Of a stretch of DNA of 5,638 nt, positions 1 to 4,989 are shown in pieces. Below the pieces are notes generated by a model that saw only the letters and a list, made by a program, of their open reading frames with translations, made no database searches and was not told the origin of the DNA. Position numbers and translations under genes: made by a program. The stretch is from IMG/VR virus record IMGVR_UViG_2639762987_000001; one strand, given 5' to 3'. The DNA is from a virus. Taxonomy: Duplodnaviria > Heunggongvirae > Uroviricota > Caudoviricetes. Every line of letters starts with the position of its first letter. Positions within the stretch are counted from its first letter, which is position 1.

Positions 1-141
1 CATAAAACGCTGCATACGGGCAGAAGACCGTTCTGCATCGCTGGCTGCACCATTCAGAAGGTTTTTGATACGGGGGATTTCATTTTTAAACTCTGCCGCA
101 TCAATCCCCAAATCAATGACCAGGTTGGCTATCTGGTCCAT
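1..141 (-). CDS. H: Tail tape measure protein, N-terminal fragment (lambda gpH-like); continues beyond the window start
   Basis: Minus-strand frame is open from ATG (plus 139-141 = cat) to base 1. Hand translation gives MDQIANLVIDLGIDAAEFKNEIPRIKNLLNGAASDAERSSARMQRF..., which aligns with the lambda gpH N-terminus as I recall it (..DLVVDLSLDAARFDEQMARVRRHFSGTESDAKK..). Strong SD GGAGGTG (plus 148-154) lies about 6 nt upstream. Start overlaps the end of the T frame by 29 nt. Position directly after G/T matches the conserved tail gene order. Not in the ORF track because it is short within the window. Confidence 0.75.
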   Translation of the reverse strand, partial: MDQIANLVIDLGIDAAEFKNEIPRIKNLLNGAASDAERSSARMQRFM

Positions 142-475
142 AACGCACACCTCCGGAAATACCTTCCCCAAGATGCATCAGTTCTTCGTCCGTTCGCTCC
201 GGTATCCCGTTCTCTTCCGGTAAAAGGCTGAAATCAGCCACCGCAGCATCACTGCTGCCGGACACCATTCTCACGATCAATGCCTTCAGCGAGGCAAACT
301 GCGCATCCATCCACACATCACTGAAGCTCTGCATCCGGAAATAATCGCCCCACTCACCAAGCTCAGTGGCCGACATTTCCGACAGCATCCGCCGCCAGTC
401 TGCCCGCCGGAACTCCCGGGCAAGCCGCATGACAAACTGCATTTCCCGCGTCAGGACTTTTCCGGCGTCAGCGCC
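113..475 (-). CDS. T: Tail assembly chaperone T domain; predicted to be expressed only as a G-T fusion by -1 ribosomal frameshift from the G frame
   Basis: ORF-track ORF 113..442 (109 aa). I translated its frame further upstream: it is open back to a stop at 476-478, so it overlaps the 3' end of G in the -1 frame. Slippery site G_GAA_AAG lies in the overlap. Stop TGA at 113-115. Assignment rests on position, frame relationship and conserved G/GT architecture, not on recognised T sequence. Confidence 0.7.
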   Translation of the reverse strand, partial: GADAGKVLTREMQFVMRLAREFRRADWRRMLSEMSATELGEWGDYFRMQSFSDVWMDAQFASLKALIVRMVSGSSDAAVADFSLLPEENGIPERTDEELMHLGEGISGGVRYGPDSQPGH

Positions 476-840
476 TCATGCTCATCATCCCCGGCATTAT
501 CAATGGCCCCCATACCGCTCAGCGACAGAACCATCTCCGCCCCCGCACCCAGGGCATCATACGACCATGTTGTAATAACGGATGCGCAAAGCGTCTCAAC
601 ATCCTGAGACTGTTCCGCATTCCACAGTGAGCGGGAAACCAGCCAGGCATTGATATCCATCCCCATCCGCAGAAAAGCAATCTGTCGTTCAGCCTCCGGC
701 AGTTCTCCCTCTTCGGCATCAAACTTTGCCGTTCGCTGCTGAACAAACGCCAGATATTCAATTCTCTGCAGCCCGGACAGCTCACTGAGCACCACGGACT
801 GCTTTTCATAATTAAACGTGCCCTGTTTCAGAAACATCAT
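451..840 (-). CDS. G: Tail assembly chaperone (lambda gpG-like)
   Basis: Translation MMFLKQGTFNYEKQSVVLSELSGLQRIEYLAF... aligns with lambda gpG N-terminus (MFLKTESFEHNGVTVTLSELSALQRIEHLA) from memory. Tandem ATG at 840/837 is preceded by SD GGTGGAG (plus 841-850 = gttctccacc). The ORF-track start at 879 is a TTG (plus 877-879 = caa) upstream of the terminator hairpin and is rejected. Stop TGA at 451-453. Confidence 0.88.
   Translation of the reverse strand: MMFLKQGTFNYEKQSVVLSELSGLQRIEYLAFVQQRTAKFDAEEGELPEAERQIAFLRMGMDINAWLVSRSLWNAEQSQDVETLCASVITTWSYDALGAGAEMVLSLSGMGAIDNAGDDEHEALTPEKS
457..463 (-). promoter_or_regulatory. Candidate -1 programmed frameshift (slippery) site G_GAA_AAG for G-T fusion synthesis
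   Basis: Minus-strand heptamer GGAAAAG (plus 457-463 = cttttcc) sits 2 codons before the G stop and inside the only window (451-475) where G and T frames are both open. It is one base different from the lambda G-T site G_GGA_AAG as I recall it. The A-site A_AAG to AAA slip is preserved; the P-site GAA to GGA re-pairing is imperfect. Confidence 0.55.
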
Positions 841-853
841 GTTCTCCACCTGC

Positions 854-877
854 AAAAAAGCCCCGGATAACCGGGGC
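854..877 (-). terminator. Intrinsic (rho-independent) terminator-like hairpin between V and G
   Basis: Plus 860-866 gccccgg / 871-877 ccggggc form a perfect 7-bp all-GC stem with loop ataa; plus A6 run 854-859 becomes a U6 tract immediately 3' of the hairpin on the minus-strand transcript. Lies in the 57-nt V-G intergenic space, upstream of the G SD. Confidence 0.7.
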
Positions 878-897
878 AAATGATGAGTATCGTCCTG

Positions 898-1641
898 TTA
901 ACCTGCGGCGCTGACAGCCACCGCAGCCACTGCCACAAAATCGCCGTCAGAAGTCATGCCCACAATGCTGACACTGCCCTGCTTCACGCCTTTCACCGTG
1001 GCCACAAGCCCGTTCAGGGTCACCGTGGCAGTCTGTGGATCTGTCGAATGCACACTGATCGCTTTGTCACTGGCTCCGTCAGGTTTTACTGTAAAGGTCA
1101 GCGTGGTGGTTGCTCCCACTTTTACACTGGCAGATGCCGGTGCCACCGTCAGCCCGGTAACGCTCACTGTTTCAGTGCCTTCCTCTGCCAGATACGGACG
1201 CCCCACACCGCTGATTTTCACTGTGCGGGTCATCACGTCTTTTGAGGCAATGGTTTTACCCAGTGAGCTCAGCCAGCCACGGAAAACATCAACAGTGCCG
1301 TTGGGATATTTGATACGAAACGCGCAGACTTCACCGGAGTCGAACAACTGAACCAGTTTTTTCTGCCCGCTGTCACCCGGACGCCAGGCCAGCGTCGCCG
1401 AAGTATCACCGACGGATTTCTGCCCCTGGGTTGTCGTTTTCCAGTCTGCATCTTCATCATCGAGATAAGAGTCATCTTCTGCATCAGCGGTCATTTCGCC
1501 AGGTTGCAGATCCTTCACCATCGCAAGACGCAGCCAGTCAGTGTCCGATAAAGGGTTCGCAAACGCATCGCCCTTGCCGGTGTACATCCAGAACGTCGTT
1601 CCCGCACCTTTCGTTTTTGCCAGTGGATTTGGTGTGGTCAT
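898..1641 (-). CDS. V: Major tail protein (lambda gpV-like) with C-terminal Ig-like domain
   Basis: Translation MTTPNPLAKTKGAGTTFWMYTGKGDAFANPLSDTDWLRLAMVKDL...SYLDDEDADW...YPNGTVDVFRGW... aligns along its length with lambda gpV ([45 protein letters not shown]...SYLDDEDADW...FPNGTVDVFRGW) from memory. ATG at 1641 (plus 1639-1641 = cat) is preceded by SD AAGGAGGTG (plus 1645-1653). The ORF-track start at 1647 is GTG (plus 1645-1647 = cac) inside the SD. Stop TAA at 898-900. Confidence 0.95.
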   Translation of the reverse strand: MTTPNPLAKTKGAGTTFWMYTGKGDAFANPLSDTDWLRLAMVKDLQPGEMTADAEDDSYLDDEDADWKTTTQGQKSVGDTSATLAWRPGDSGQKKLVQLFDSGEVCAFRIKYPNGTVDVFRGWLSSLGKTIASKDVMTRTVKISGVGRPYLAEEGTETVSVTGLTVAPASASVKVGATTTLTFTVKPDGASDKAISVHSTDPQTATVTLNGLVATVKGVKQGSVSIVGMTSDGDFVAVAAVAVSAAG

Positions 1642-1652
1642 TGCCACCTCCT

Positions 1653-2054: not shown

Positions 2055-2413
2055 CGGGTCAGCCATAACCTCAGTTGTTGTTTCAGTGCATACCCCAGCT
2101 GTTTCGGCATTTCCGCAGCAATAATGCGGTCGCGGGCATCTTCAAATGCCTGTGTCAGCGGTCCGGACAGCGGGACTTTCACNNNNNNNNNNNNNNNNNN
2201 NNNNNNNNNNNNNNNNNNNNNNNNNNNNNNNNNNNNNNNNNNNNNNNNNNNNNNNNNNGCGGGCAGATTGCCCCGGTTAACGCGGATCCTGGCCGTCATT
2301 TTTCCTGACGGACTGGCTTTAAACACCCGGACACGCTGACGTACCAGTTTCAGGGGGATCCCTTTCACCTGGTTATCTCCCGCAACGGTATTCCCGGCAA
2401 CCTGCCGGGTGGC
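2051..2413 (-). CDS. Z: Tail completion / head-tail connector protein (lambda gpZ-like); interrupted by N-run 2183-2258 and with its 5' end in or beyond N-run 2414-2484
   Basis: Segment 2259-2413 translates to ...KMTARIRVNRGNLP and segment 2051-2182 to VKVPLSGPLTQAFEDARDRIIAAEMPKQLGYALKQQLRLWLTR. These match lambda gpZ motifs (..ARIKVNRGDLP.. and ..VKIPMAVPLTTAFKQNIERIRRERLPKELGYALQHQLRMVIKR) from memory. Both segments are in the same coordinate frame. Stop TGA at 2051-2053. The ORF-track extension up to 2599 (MLCPDLRS...) is not Z-like and is treated as an artefact of reading through Ns. Confidence 0.85.
   Translation of the reverse strand, partial: ATRQVAGNTVAGDNQVKGIPLKLVRQRVRVFKASPSGKMTARIRVNRGNLPXXXXXXXXXXXXXXXXXXXXXXXXXXVKVPLSGPLTQAFEDARDRIIAAEMPKQLGYALKQQLRLWLTR
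2183..2258. other. Run of 76 ambiguous bases (N) inside the Z-like gene
   Basis: Directly visible in the sequence. True content and true length are unknown. Confidence 1.
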
Positions 2414-2484: not shown

Positions 2485-2726
2485 CGTTCATGCCGTGTGA
2501 CCGTCCATTGTTGTCCGTCATAAACAACGCGATCCCCGCGCCGTGGGCGGTATCCCGAAGAAAACACCACCAGAGAGACCGCAGGTCCGGACAGAGCATT
2601 CAGCTCTGCCAGTGTTTCTCCCGGGATCACAGTCATATCGACATCATTAATCGAGGCTGTCTTTCCCATCTTTCTGACCGTGATCGCATCCATACGCGCT
2701 GCCAGCCGGGAAAAGGGATCAGACAT
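2485..2726 (-). CDS. FII: Head-tail joining protein (lambda gpFII-like); 3' end lost in N-run
   Basis: Translation MSDPFSRLAARMDAITVRKMGKTASI...RRGDRVVYDGQQWTVTRHE aligns with lambda gpFII (MADFDNLFDAAIARADETIRGYMGTSATI...RRGDTLTIGEENFWVDRV) from memory. ATG at 2726 (plus 2724-2726 = cat) overlaps the stop of the upstream gene as ATGTCTGA. The ORF-track continuation through the Ns to 2373 would overlap conserved Z coding sequence and is not trusted. Confidence 0.8.
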
Positions 2727-3042
2727 TGAGTTTTACCGGCACTTCTTCTGCACTGGTTCCGGCATCTGCCCAGACAACCCCGACCAGCGGATCAGAGCCG
2801 CTGTTAGTCAGCTGAACTTTTCCGGACTTCAGATAAACCTTCTTACCCGTTTTCATGTCATCCGTTTTCAGCTTAGGCAGCATAAACACACCTTCGGTCA
2901 TGCCGTCGCCTGTTTCACCCTGTGGAATATCGGTCAGCGCCACCGCAAAAACATCACCCACCTGCACCAGCTCTCCGCTGCTGATGGCTGCACTGGCAAC
3001 AATCGCCACCGTTTTTCCTTCTTCTACAAAATTCTTTGCCAT
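2719..3042 (-). CDS. Small phage structural-module protein, DUF2190-like (function unknown; candidate head decoration or accessory protein)
   Basis: 107-codon ORF MAKNFVEEGKTVAIVASAAISSGELVQVGDVFAVALTDIPQGETGDGMTEGVFMLPKLK...KVYLKSGKVQLTN...LVGVVWADAGTSAEEVPVKLNV. The small, Gly/Val/Ala-rich pattern resembles DUF2190-family phage proteins as I remember them; this is a recollection, not a search. ATG at 3042 has SD GGAG (plus 3049-3052 = ctcc) 6 nt upstream. The ORF-track start at 3087 lies within the terminator hairpin and is rejected. Stop TGA at 2719-2721. Confidence 0.8.
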   Translation of the reverse strand: MAKNFVEEGKTVAIVASAAISSGELVQVGDVFAVALTDIPQGETGDGMTEGVFMLPKLKTDDMKTGKKVYLKSGKVQLTNSGSDPLVGVVWADAGTSAEEVPVKLNV

Positions 3043-3055
3043 AACTGTCTCCGCA

Positions 3056-3074
3056 CAGCCCCGTTCAGGGGCTG
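3056..3074 (-). other. Stable hairpin immediately upstream of the DUF2190-gene ribosome binding site
   Basis: Plus 3056-3062 cagcccc / 3068-3074 ggggctg form a perfect 7-bp stem with loop gttca. No U-tract follows it on the minus-strand transcript, so it is not a canonical terminator. Confidence 0.5.
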
Positions 3075-3085
3075 ATTTCAGGTAC

Positions 3086-3104
3086 AAAAAAAGCCCTTAC
3101 GGGC
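3086..3104 (-). terminator. Intrinsic terminator-like element after the major capsid gene
   Basis: On the minus-strand RNA: GCCC-GUAA-GGGC (plus 3093-3104; GNRA-type tetraloop, 4-5 bp GC stem) followed immediately by U7 (plus A-run 3086-3092). It is 25 nt downstream of the capsid stop. The stem is short, so likely weak or partial. Confidence 0.45.
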
Positions 3105-4185: not shown

Positions 4186-4989
4186 TTACCNNNNNNNNNN
4201 NNNNNNNNNNNNNNNNNTCTGATAACGCCCGCCAAACATGGCAAACAGATCATTAATACCGTTTACACGCGCTTTTTGCTCTGCCAGTACCTGCGCACGG
4301 ATACTGTTTTCATCCACCACGGGTGCTGCTGCCTGCACTGGCGTCCGGGAGGCTGCAGGTTCATCATCCTGTACGCGTGGAGCACTGTTGCGTGGCGGAG
4401 TAATCATGTTTCGAATGGATTCCGGCATCTTTTTAAATTCCTCTGTACGTTTTGACTGAATACATGCCATTGCCTTAACGGCTGGCGTCACCTGATCAGC
4501 AAATCCATGTGCCAGACATTCGGCACCGGACATCCAGGTCTCATCCGCCAGCATGGCAGCAATTTCATCGGTGGTTTTCCCGGTTTTCTGTGCATAAGCG
4601 GGTAACAGAACCGCCTCAACCTTATCGAGCAGGTCGGCATAGGTGCGCATGTCCTCCGCATCACCGCCCGTAAAGCCAAATGGTTTATGAATCATCATGA
4701 AAGTGTTTTCCGGCATAATGACCGGGTTTCCCACCATCGCAATGACCGACGCCATTGACGCCGCCACACCGTCGACATAAACGGTAATGGACGCACCATG
4801 TGTTTTCAGCGCATTAAAAATGGCGATGCCTTCAAAGACATCGCCACCCGGTGAATTAATATGGAGATTAATGTGGGTGATATCGCCCAGTGCATTCAGA
4901 TCACTGATAAACTGCTTCGCTGTAACACCCCAGAAACCAATCTCGTCATAAATATAAATATCCGCGTCACTCTGGTGACCAGCCTGCAT
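4186..4989 (-). CDS. Prohead (head maturation) protease, ClpP / S14-like, with a C-terminal extension of about 90 residues (possible scaffold region)
   Basis: Translation from ATG 4989 (plus 4987-4989 = cat): MQAGHQSDADIYIYDEIGFWGVTAKQFISDLNALGD...INSPGGDVFEGIAIFNALK...ASMASVIAMVG...MIHKP... is the typical ClpP-like phage prohead protease core. It starts 14 nt after the portal stop. The ORF-track start at 5250 overlaps the portal gene in another frame and is rejected. The apparent stop TAA at 4186-4188 depends on reading through the N-run. Confidence 0.88.
   Translation of the reverse strand: MQAGHQSDADIYIYDEIGFWGVTAKQFISDLNALGDITHINLHINSPGGDVFEGIAIFNALKTHGASITVYVDGVAASMASVIAMVGNPVIMPENTFMMIHKPFGFTGGDAEDMRTYADLLDKVEAVLLPAYAQKTGKTTDEIAAMLADETWMSGAECLAHGFADQVTPAVKAMACIQSKRTEEFKKMPESIRNMITPPRNSAPRVQDDEPAASRTPVQAAAPVVDENSIRAQVLAEQKARVNGINDLFAMFGGRYQXXXXXXXXXX
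4191..4217. other. Run of 27 ambiguous bases (N) at the protease/capsid junction
   Basis: Directly visible. The last 10 codons of the protease ORF are made up of these Ns, so its stop position is not established. Confidence 1.

What the first reader, a model, noticed from the sequence alone, without database searches (positions are those of the whole stretch)
451..478. G-T programmed -1 frameshift site with a non-canonical heptamer G_GAA_AAG
The T frame is open only from 475 downward and overlaps the last 8 codons of G in the -1 frame, so T can only be made as a G-T fusion. The only plausible slip site in that overlap is GGAAAAG (463..457 on the minus strand). It differs by one base from the lambda site G_GGA_AAG as I recall it, which changes P-site re-pairing (Glu GAA to GGA) while keeping the A_AAG Lys slip. 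This is a natural variant for asking how much P-site pairing the G-T shift needs. The fusion would be roughly 240 aa.
Basis: partly seen in the sequence, partly recalled or inferred. Interest (0 to 1): 0.5.

Follow-up and report, generated by a model that had tools for sequence, protein, structure and literature searches.

The report
Phage tail G-T frameshift site GGAAAAG
This is the ordinary ribosomal slip site that lets a lambda-like E. coli prophage make its G-T tail-assembly fusion protein; its "odd" heptamer GGAAAAG is the commonest one among the relatives sampled and is already annotated in phage N15.

Summary
On the minus strand, G (840..451, Pfam gpG) ends ...CCG GAA AAG TCC TGA. The T frame (Pfam gpT) is open from 475 in the -1 frame. 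GGAAAAG (463..457) is the only slip-prone sequence in the 25-nt overlap. A -1 slip there gives a 242-aa fusion that aligns with lambda GT and N15 GT straight through the junction.

The window is an mEp460/cdtI-type lambdoid prophage found in about a third of complete E. coli genomes.

The heptamer is not a rare variant of lambda's G_GGA_AAG:
- Phage N15's RefSeq record labels exactly GGAAAAG, at the same position, as the "slippery sequence for -1 translational frameshift".
- 16 of 27 sampled G/T lineages carry it (phi80, HK225, mEp043, Fels-1, and Klebsiella, Serratia, Proteus and Providencia prophages).
- It is the only invariant run in the junction across those 16 lineages.
- Its first G is kept although the preceding codon changes amino acid (Pro, Ala or Leu).

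The ATG at 442 that public annotations use as the T start is not conserved and has no usable Shine-Dalgarno sequence. No downstream RNA structure is predicted.

Verdict: a real G-T frameshift site and a new member of a known kind. No fusion protein has been measured here. Interest is low to modest.

The parts
451..840 (-). Gene G, tail assembly chaperone: 129 aa from ATG 840 (RefSeq starts at ATG 837), stop TGA at 453-451.
   Evidence: Translation. Pfam PF06894 Phage_TAC_2, E 5e-40, residues 2-122. Annotated gpG in E. coli MS6198.
457..463 (-). Slip heptamer G_GAA_AAG: 0-frame codons GAA (Glu) and AAG (Lys); -1 frame codons GGA and AAA.
   Evidence: Identical heptamer at the same position in 16 of 27 lineages. 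Only invariant run in a 97-nt alignment. Annotated as the slippery sequence in N15.
451..475 (-). G/T overlap: 25 nt between the first sense codon of the T frame and the end of G.
113..457 (-). [quoted passage not shown] The T frame itself is open from 475.
   Evidence: Pfam PF06223 Phage_tail_T, E 5e-15. The fusion aligns with lambda GT (residues 2-237 against 1-244, E 5e-43) and with N15 GT as one segment across the junction.
440..442 (-). In-frame ATG that public annotations use as the start of a free-standing T. Probably an internal Met codon.
   Evidence: annotation. Not conserved in relatives. Best anti-SD pairing is -4.3 kcal/mol and abuts the ATG.
474..477 (-). SD-like GAGG 10 nt 5' of the heptamer. 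A possible weak stimulator, not established.
   Evidence: an SD-like tetramer lies 9-13 nt upstream in 6 of the 11 lineages of this clade and in none of the 5 N15/phi80-type lineages.
898..1647 (-). Major tail protein V with a C-terminal Ig-like domain (context).
   Evidence: PF16461, E 1e-66, and PF02368 Big_2.
860..877 (-). Terminator-like hairpin followed by a T run, between V and G (context).
   Evidence: Annotated as a terminator in the mEp460, Ayreon and N15 records.
1..141 (-). Start of the tape measure gene H (ATG 141-139). It overlaps the end of T by 29 nt and runs off the window.
   Evidence: Anti-SD pairing is -10.8 kcal/mol at GGAGG, which lies inside the coding for T's C-terminal GGVRYG motif.

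Best explanation
The window carries the G-T tail assembly chaperone pair of a lambda-like siphophage, an mEp460/cdtI-type E. coli prophage.

Most ribosomes translate G to its stop at 453-451 and release the 129-aa chaperone. A small fraction slips back one base on G_GAA_AAG (463..457). The single E. coli tRNA-Lys moves from AAG to AAA. tRNA-Glu in the P site moves from GAA to GGA, keeping the first-position G:C and third-position A:U pairs and accepting a G.U pair in the middle. Translation then continues in the T frame to 115-113. The product is a 242-aa G-T fusion, ...TPEK-VLTREMQ....

By analogy with lambda, the G part of the fusion binds the tape measure protein and the T part recruits the major tail protein.

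Shown here: gene families, frames, the homologous position of the site, its conservation, and the lack of a conserved T start.

Inferred: that the fusion is made, at what ratio, and which tRNA or tRNAs slip.
For: 1. Family and order. The gene order is V, G (PF06894), T (PF06223, -1 frame), H.

2. Fusion alignment. The conceptual fusion aligns with lambda GT and with N15 GT as a single BLAST segment through the junction.

3. T-frame conservation. In 27 lineages, the T-frame peptide from the heptamer's Lys onward is K-[VAIR]-x6-F-x3-LA[RH]E[FM] at fixed spacing. In most lineages this stretch lies past the G stop.

4. Heptamer conservation.
- GGAAAAG is the only invariant run across 16 lineages whose T proteins are 43-100% identical to the window's.
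- The third base of the codon before GAA is G in 16 of 16 although the amino acid is Pro, Leu or Ala. At the 13 codons upstream, the commonest third base reaches at most 11 of 16.
- In IMG/VR, 115 of 117 analysable matches to GGAAAAG plus the fixed-spacing T motif have the same G/T geometry. The preceding codons there are CCG, GCG, CTG, TTG and GTG.

5. Prior annotation. N15's RefSeq record marks GGAAAAG (10027..10033) as the 'slippery sequence for -1 translational frameshift'.

6. No own start for T.
- ATG 442 is not conserved.
- Its best anti-SD pairing is -4.3 kcal/mol, against -6.4 for G and -10.8 for H.
- None of 97 T homologues is a single-frame G-T protein.

7. Literature.
- A_AAG is the most shift-prone tetramer in E. 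coli (PMC4066793; PMC5009743).
- Re-pairing of tRNA-Glu from GAA to GGA through G:U has been proposed for mycobacteriophage chaperone sites. An XXYYYY ('twofour') motif is in the PRFect motif set (PMC10885494).
Against: - No protein or reporter data exist for this site, for N15 or for any other GGAAAAG phage that I could find in the searchable library.
- In a purified E. coli system without stimulators, AUG GAA AAG gave mainly the 0-frame product and was used as the 'less slippery' control (PMC6924986).
- No downstream structure is predicted that could compensate (z = 0.08 and -0.94).
- An in-frame ATG lies 8 nt after the G stop, so some free T made by re-initiation cannot be excluded from sequence alone.
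- All the public annotations I inspected treat T as a separate gene.
Confidence: 0.88

Rival explanations
1. The same G-T fusion is made, but only tRNA-Lys slips on the A_AAG tetramer (the one-tRNA or NNA_AAG 'hexanucleotide' mode). P-site tRNA-Glu does not re-pair, and the conserved first G has another cause.
For: - A_AAG alone is the best tetramer in E. coli, and NNA_AAG sites such as G_CGA_AAG (IS1222) work without P-site re-pairing (PMC5009743; PMC4066793).
- Kluyvera and Ewingella relatives have G_GCA_AAA, where tRNA-Ala could keep only the first position.
Against: - Heptamer position 1 is G in 16 of 16 lineages and in 115 of 115 IMG/VR loci, across five different preceding codons.
- In all 27 lineages, base 1 equals base 2 of the heptamer (G_G, A_A or C_C), which is what first-position P-site re-pairing needs.
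- G-ending codons are also the preferred Pro, Leu and Ala codons in enterobacteria, so this argument is suggestive rather than decisive.
Confidence: 0.3
2. T is made as a free-standing protein from ATG 442 (or ATG 430), by re-initiation after termination of G 8 nt upstream. The heptamer would then be irrelevant.
For: - The ATG lies 8 nt after the TGA of G.
- RefSeq and GenBank records annotate T this way.
Against: - The ATG is replaced by Leu, Arg, His, Ile or Tyr codons in relatives, and several relatives have no Met before LAREF at all.
- Annotators disagree on the start: 442 in MS6198 and mEp460, 376 in Ayreon.
- The only SD-like sequence is GGGA, which abuts the ATG.
- T-frame residues between the heptamer and the ATG are conserved.
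- Lambda, where the fusion is proven and free T is not made, has the same layout (PMC5009743).
Confidence: 0.06
3. The shift happens at the RNA level: RNA polymerase slips on the A run, or the frame break is a sequencing error or a decaying pseudogene.
For: The site contains a run of four A.
Against: - To my knowledge (not checked here), known transcriptional-slippage sites need longer homopolymer runs than four A.
- The same sequence is present in 87 IMG/VR loci with an identical heptamer. A copy at 95% identity or more is in 1,847 of 5,426 complete E. coli genomes, and 17 phage records match at 98.4% identity or more.
- The two-frame layout is kept across genera.
Confidence: 0.02

Closest known systems
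Phage lambda G / G-T programmed -1 frameshift at G_GGA_AAG (Levin, Hendrix and Casjens 1993; Xu, Hendrix and Duda 2004, 2013, 2014; both cited through PMC5009743)
   Same: - Same gene families (PF06894, PF06223) and same V-G-T-H order.
- Same -1 relation of T to G.
- Slip site at the homologous codons, with the same K-V... continuation and the same spacing to the LAREF/LAREM motif.
- No predicted downstream stimulator.
   Different: - The P-site codon is GAA (Glu) rather than GGA (Gly), so re-pairing to GGA needs a middle-position G.U pair.
- G ends 1 codon after the heptamer instead of 5.
- The T part is shorter (114 against 144 residues after the Lys).
- GT identity is only 34%.
Phage N15 genes 14/15 (RefSeq NC_001901), and the phi80, HK225, mEp043, Fels-1 and Kp4865-4 homologues
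   Same: - Identical heptamer G_GAA_AAG at the same position.
- N15's record labels it the slippery sequence for the -1 frameshift.
- HK225's record calls the downstream product 'tail assembly protein GT'.
   Different: - The N15-type lineages have GCG before the heptamer and, except Kp4865-4, 5 codons between it and the G stop. The window has CCG and 1 codon.
- The window's GT is 36% identical to N15 GT.
- The window's own lineage (mEp460, cdtI, E. coli RefSeq genomes) is not annotated with a frameshift in the three records inspected.
One-tRNA -1 slippage on A_AAG, and NNA_AAG 'hexanucleotide' sites such as IS1222 G_CGA_AAG and B. subtilis cdd A_CGA_AAG (PMC5009743; Sharma et al. 2014, PMC4066793)
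   Same: An A_AAG Lys codon is read by the single E. coli tRNA-Lys, and the P-site codon does not fit the XXY rule.
   Different: Here the base before the P-site codon is also conserved, which suggests partial P-site re-pairing. The product is a structural-assembly fusion, not a transposase.
Non-canonical phage chaperone motifs in PRFect, 'twofour' XXYYYY and 'fivetwo' GGGGGAA (McNair et al. 2024, PMC10885494)
   Same: GGAAAA fits 'twofour'. The paper proposes that tRNA-Glu re-binds GGA through G:U pairing, which is the same re-pairing needed here.
   Different: Those motifs were derived from actinobacteriophage annotations. In GGGGGAA the Glu codon is the second (3') codon of the heptamer, not the first.
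E. coli dnaX A_AAA_AAG
   Same: The same slip of tRNA-Lys from AAG to AAA.
   Different: dnaX has an upstream SD and a downstream hairpin and shifts at high efficiency, about 80% in the assays of PMC6787027. Here there is no predicted hairpin and only a weak, unconserved SD-like GAGG.

Membership tests
Lambda-type G/GT tail assembly chaperone with programmed -1 frameshift | Two short ORFs lie between the major tail protein gene and the tape measure gene. | tested here: met
   V is at 1647..898, G at 840..451, T frame at 475..113, and H starts at 141.
Lambda-type G/GT tail assembly chaperone with programmed -1 frameshift | The upstream ORF belongs to the gpG family. | tested here: met
   PF06894, E 5.1e-40, 136.6 bits against a cut-off of 27.
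Lambda-type G/GT tail assembly chaperone with programmed -1 frameshift | The downstream ORF belongs to the gpT family and lies in the -1 frame, overlapping the end of G. | tested here: met
   PF06223, E 5.1e-15, 56.1 bits against a cut-off of 25.9.
Lambda-type G/GT tail assembly chaperone with programmed -1 frameshift | A slip-prone sequence in the overlap is conserved among relatives at the homologous position. | tested here: met
   All 27 lineages have a Lys-codon slip site (A_AAG or A_AAA) at a fixed distance from F..LAREF; 16 of them have GGAAAAG.
Lambda-type G/GT tail assembly chaperone with programmed -1 frameshift | T has no start of its own, and its conservation begins at the slip site. 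| tested here: met
   ATG 442 is not conserved and has a poor SD. The fusion aligns through the junction.
Lambda-type G/GT tail assembly chaperone with programmed -1 frameshift | The fusion protein is made at a few per cent of G and is needed for tail assembly. | not testable with these tools
   Needs a western blot, mass spectrometry or genetics.
Canonical X_XXY_YYZ tandem-slip heptamer | Bases 1-3 are identical, so the P-site tRNA keeps its first two pairs after the shift. | tested here: not met
   Bases 1-3 are G, G, A. The P-site codon GAA becomes GGA, a second-position G.U pair (PMC6924986).
Canonical X_XXY_YYZ tandem-slip heptamer | Bases 4-6 are identical, so the A-site tRNA re-pairs. 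| tested here: met
   A_AAG becomes AAA.
Z_ZZN tetramer / NNA_AAG one-tRNA slip sites | A_AAG lies in the 0 frame. | tested here: met
   AAG at 459-457 is preceded by A at 460.
Z_ZZN tetramer / NNA_AAG one-tRNA slip sites | The bases 5' of the P-site codon are free to vary. | tested here: not met
   Heptamer base 1 is G in 16 of 16 lineages and in 115 of 115 IMG/VR loci, although the preceding codon and amino acid vary.
N15-type slip site (GGAAAAG annotated in NC_001901) | The same heptamer, the same frame and the same distance to the T motif. | tested here: met
   N15 10027..10033 is GGAAAAG. In both, the Lys is followed by 11 residues and then LAREF.
dnaX-like stimulated -1 frameshift | A downstream hairpin or pseudoknot lies 5-9 nt after the heptamer. 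| tested here: not met
   The MFE of the 87 nt after the heptamer equals that of shuffles (z = 0.08). For the 161-nt context, z = -0.94.
dnaX-like stimulated -1 frameshift | An upstream SD-like sequence lies about 10-14 nt 5' of the heptamer. | tested here: inconclusive
   GAGG lies 10 nt upstream in the window. A similar motif is present in 6 of 11 lineages of this clade and in none of the 5 N15-type lineages. The acidic tail of G produces GAG and GAA codons in any case.

The most novel reading that the evidence does not exclude
G_GAA_AAG, not lambda's canonical G_GGA_AAG, is the predominant G-T slip site of enterobacterial lambda-like phages, and it is selected as a whole heptamer because its first G is kept across five different preceding codons. 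If so, P-site tRNA-Glu re-pairs to GGA through a middle-position G.U pair in vivo. A sequence that behaves as 'not slippery' in a purified system (Peng et al. 2019) would then deliver the few-per-cent shift these phages need without any stimulator. Both slipping tRNAs carry mnm5s2U34, so the G:GT ratio of this large phage group might be doubly sensitive to the host thiolation pathway that Maynard et al. 2012 linked to lambda.
Probability: 0.35. Interest if true: 0.4.

Novelty: new member of a known kind. Interest (0 to 1): 0.2.

Why it matters
Practical point. In the records inspected, annotation of this very common E. coli prophage group lists T as a free-standing gene. The group is present in 1,847 of 5,426 complete genomes. 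The records were one RefSeq genome and phages mEp460 and Ayreon; the summary rows for the other hits also list G and T as separate products. The start codons chosen disagree, and the fusion that is probably the real product is missing. A rule keyed on the heptamer and its fixed distance to the LAREF motif would fix this.

Scientific point. The finding adds no new mechanism. It does show that the family offers a ready-made natural series at one homologous position:
- G_GGA_AAG
- G_GAA_AAG
- G_GCA_AAA
- G_GGA_AAA
- A_AAA_AAG
- C_CCA_AAA

This series could be used to ask how much P-site pairing a stimulator-free -1 shift needs.

Tried and rejected
- Downstream stimulatory RNA structure. Folding the 87 nt after the heptamer and a 161-nt context gave energies no better than shuffles. 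Rejected.
- Upstream SD-like stimulator. Present in the window but not conserved. Left as 'noticed'.
- Independent T start. Tested by anti-SD pairing and by conservation of the ATG. Rejected as the main route.
- Single-frame G-T relatives. The long T homologues P0001, P0004, P0005, P0029, P0042 and P0052 are chimeras with other genes or read-through artefacts, not G-T fusions.
- The search for related loci with the T protein, or with a T alignment, in IMG/VR returned only 100%-identical copies. It was useless for diversity. Diversity came from genome contigs, from tblastn against phages, from the look-up of encoding contigs and from DNA-pattern scans.
- Literature. No paper in the searchable library discusses GGAAAAG as a phage slip site. 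Xu et al. 2004, Xu et al. 2014 and Licznar et al. 2003 are not held. I therefore could not check whether N15's site was ever tested experimentally, or what efficiency GAA_AAG gave in the NNA_AAG series.
They give diversity within a sample, not total counts.

Full report
**What is in the window.** Reading the minus strand gives an ORF from ATG 840 (or 837) to TGA 453-451. It encodes 129 aa and ends ...GAG GCG CTG ACG CCG GAA AAG TCC TGA. A second frame is closed by TGA at 478-476 and open from 475 to a stop at 115-113. Its codons begin one base upstream of the G codons, so it is the -1 frame. The two frames overlap by 25 nt. GGAAAAG lies at 463..457 and reads G_GAA_AAG in the upstream frame. 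In the overlap it contains the only tetramer of the Z_ZZN type (A_AAG), and there is no X_XXY_YYZ heptamer. A -1 slip on it gives a 242-aa product with the junction ...EALTPEKVLTREMQ.... The bare heptamer is not statistically unusual: there are 3 copies in the window against 0.73 expected. Its meaning comes from context.

**What the genes are.**
- The upstream ORF is a lambda gpG tail assembly chaperone (PF06894, E 5e-40).
- The downstream frame is gpT (PF06223, E 5e-15).
- The gene before them is a lambda-type major tail protein with an Ig-like domain (PF16461, PF02368).
- The tape measure gene starts at 141.

The DNA is 98.4-99.4% identical to the 17 matching phage records, which include cdtI, mEp460, Ayreon and Tritos. 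A copy at 95% identity or more is present in 1,847 of 5,426 complete E. coli genomes. The three records I inspected (RefSeq E. coli MS6198, phage Ayreon, phage mEp460) annotate T as a separate gene. Their start codons differ: ATG 442 in two, ATG 376 in Ayreon. None has a joined CDS.

**Comparison with lambda.** Lambda has ...TCT GCG GGA AAG TGT... at the homologous place (L004 1210-1216). Its T CDS is annotated from the last base of that heptamer. The window's conceptual fusion aligns with lambda GT (residues 2-237 against 1-244, 34% identity, E 5e-43) and with N15 GT (36%) as a single BLAST segment running through the junction. The difference from lambda is one base: GGG AAA G against GGA AAA G in the T frame.

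**Relatives.** I collected the G/T junction from 27 lineages:
- GTDB genomes
- phage records found by tblastn
- contigs encoding divergent T homologues

In every one, the T-frame peptide from the Lys of the slip site onward has the form K-[VAIR]-x6-F-x3-LA[RH]E[FM] at a fixed spacing. In most lineages this stretch lies past the G stop.

| Heptamer | Lineages | Examples |
|---|---|---|
| G_GAA_AAG | 16 | window; a 74%-identical E. coli relative; Citrobacter; Fels-1; two further Salmonella; Serratia; Sodalis; Klebsiella spallanzanii; Klebsiella phage Kp4865-4; Proteus; Providencia heimbachae; mEp043; phi80; HK225; N15 |
| G_GGA_AAG | 4 | lambda; PhiR12_4; an Stx2a phage; Dickeya |
| A_AAA_AAG | 2 | Stx phages |
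| C_CCA_AAA | 2 | Vibrio phages |
| G_GCA_AAA | 2 | Kluyvera; Ewingella |
| G_GGA_AAA | 1 | Providencia rustigianii |

So the 'non-canonical' heptamer is the majority form in this sample.

The RefSeq record of phage N15 carries a misc_feature 'slippery sequence for -1 translational frameshift' at 10027..10033. That sequence is GGAAAAG. HK225's record calls the downstream product 'tail assembly protein GT'.

Two IMG/VR scans used each heptamer plus the fixed-spacing T motif.
- GGAAAAG: 115 of 117 analysable matches had the correct G/T geometry. They comprised 37 distinct T N-termini and five different preceding codons.
- GGGAAAG: 114 of 119 had the correct geometry, with only 9 distinct T N-termini.

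**Evidence that the heptamer is selected.** In a gap-free 97-nt alignment of the 16 GGAAAAG lineages (T identity to the window 43-100%), the seven bases are the only invariant run. The base at heptamer position 1 is the third base of the preceding G codon. It is G in 16 of 16, although the codon is CCG, GCG, CTG or TTG and the amino acid is Pro, Ala or Leu. At the 13 codons further upstream, the commonest third base reaches at most 11 of 16. That G is not translated as part of a T-frame codon in the fusion, so its conservation points to the mRNA-tRNA interaction. After a -1 shift, tRNA-Glu would keep a G:C pair at codon position 1 and an A:U pair at position 3, and would have G.U in the middle. 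In all 27 lineages, base 1 equals base 2 of the heptamer. This argument is suggestive rather than decisive, because G-ending Pro, Leu and Ala codons are also the preferred ones in these hosts and the lineages are not independent.

**Is T made on its own?**
- The ATG at 442 lies 8 nt after the G stop. It is replaced by Leu, Arg, His, Ile or Tyr codons in relatives.
- The later Met (MRLAREF) is His, Phe, Leu or Asn in others.
- The best anti-SD pairing before ATG 442 is -4.3 kcal/mol and abuts the ATG. G has -6.4 and H has -10.8.
- None of the 97 T homologues is a single-frame G-T protein. The long ones are chimeras.

Free T by re-initiation cannot be excluded from sequence, but nothing supports it beyond gene-caller output.

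**Stimulators.** The RNA after the heptamer folds no better than shuffled sequence (z = 0.08 for 87 nt, -0.94 for 161 nt). A GAGG lies 10 nt upstream, the spacing at which SD-like elements stimulate -1 shifts. A similar motif occurs in only 6 of 11 lineages of this clade and in none of the N15 type. I do not count it as part of the signal.

**What the literature says.**
- A_AAG is the most shift-prone tetramer in E. coli, and G_GGA_AAG is among the best heptamers (Sharma et al. 2014, PMC4066793; Atkins et al. 2016, PMC5009743).
- NNA_AAG sites can work without P-site re-pairing.
- Peng et al. 2019 (PMC6924986) used AUG GAA AAG as the 'less slippery' control. They noted the second-position mismatch for tRNA-Glu and saw mainly the 0-frame product in a purified system.
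- The PRFect paper (PMC10885494) lists an XXYYYY motif among those seen in annotated phage chaperone frameshifts. It proposes G:U pairing for tRNA-Glu re-binding GGA.
- Lambda needs a G:GT ratio of about 30:1 and shifts about 4% of the time (PMC3296357). Even a weak site may therefore suffice.

I could not read Xu et al. 2004, Xu et al. 2014 or Licznar et al. 2003. I therefore do not know whether N15's site or GAA_AAG has been measured.

**Verdict.** This is the G-T programmed -1 frameshift site of a lambda-like prophage, using G_GAA_AAG. It is not a rare variant of the lambda site. It is the N15/phi80-type site, annotated more than two decades ago by my recollection of the N15 genome paper (Ravin et al. 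2000), and the most common and most diverse type among the relatives I sampled.

Still inferred, not shown:
- that the fusion is made
- at what ratio
- whether one or two tRNAs slip

The useful by-products are an annotation correction for a very common E. coli prophage and a natural series of heptamers at one homologous position.

Noticed in passing
L089 (Kluyvera) and L090 (Ewingella) junctions; also L093, L091 and L094: Some relatives place the slip Lys codon directly before the G stop. These are G_GCA_AAA_TAG (Kluyvera, Ewingella), G_GGA_AAA_TAG (Providencia rustigianii) and G_GAA_AAG_TAA/TAG (Proteus, Providencia heimbachae). In G_GCA_AAA, tRNA-Ala could keep only the first position after the shift. 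This resembles a 'shifty stop' arrangement and is further from the canonical rule than the window's site.
   Followed up: partly
window 860-877 (minus strand): A 7-bp all-GC hairpin followed by TTTTTT lies between V and G. It is annotated as a rho-independent terminator in the mEp460, Ayreon and N15 records. It would lower G, T and H transcription relative to V.
   Followed up: partly
window 464-477 (minus strand): A small hairpin, GGCG-CUGA-CGCC, lies directly 5' of the heptamer, and a GAGG lies 10 nt upstream. The commoner allele in IMG/VR (55 of 87 loci) has GAGGTG instead of GAGGCG. That change keeps the stem as a G.U pair. Neither feature is conserved in other genera.
   Followed up: partly
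window 113-160 (minus strand): The tape measure gene starts at ATG 141, 29 nt before the T stop. Its strong SD (GGAGG, -10.8 kcal/mol) lies inside the codons of T's conserved C-terminal motif GGVRYG. That protein motif and the H ribosome binding site are therefore encoded by the same bases; lambda shows the same arrangement.
   Followed up: no
window 2183-2258, 2414-2484, 4191-4217: Three runs of N (masked or unresolved sequence) interrupt head and head-tail joining genes on the minus strand.
   Followed up: no
window 2709-2715 (+) and 2817-2823 (-): There are two further copies of GGAAAAG in the window. The minus-strand copy lies inside ORF 2719..3087. Frame and context were not examined.
   Followed up: no
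L001 2260-3801 (E. coli MS6198, 100% identical over window 100-900): In the only 100%-identical RefSeq locus inspected, the tape measure gene downstream of T is annotated as a frameshifted pseudogene. That particular prophage copy may be defective.
   Followed up: no
PMC3296357 main text: The Maynard et al. 2012 text prints lambda's slippery sequence as GGGTTTG (codons GGT-TTG), while its Table 1 gives GGGAAAG. The text appears to give the complement of the A run. This is worth knowing when text-mining slip sites.
   Followed up: no
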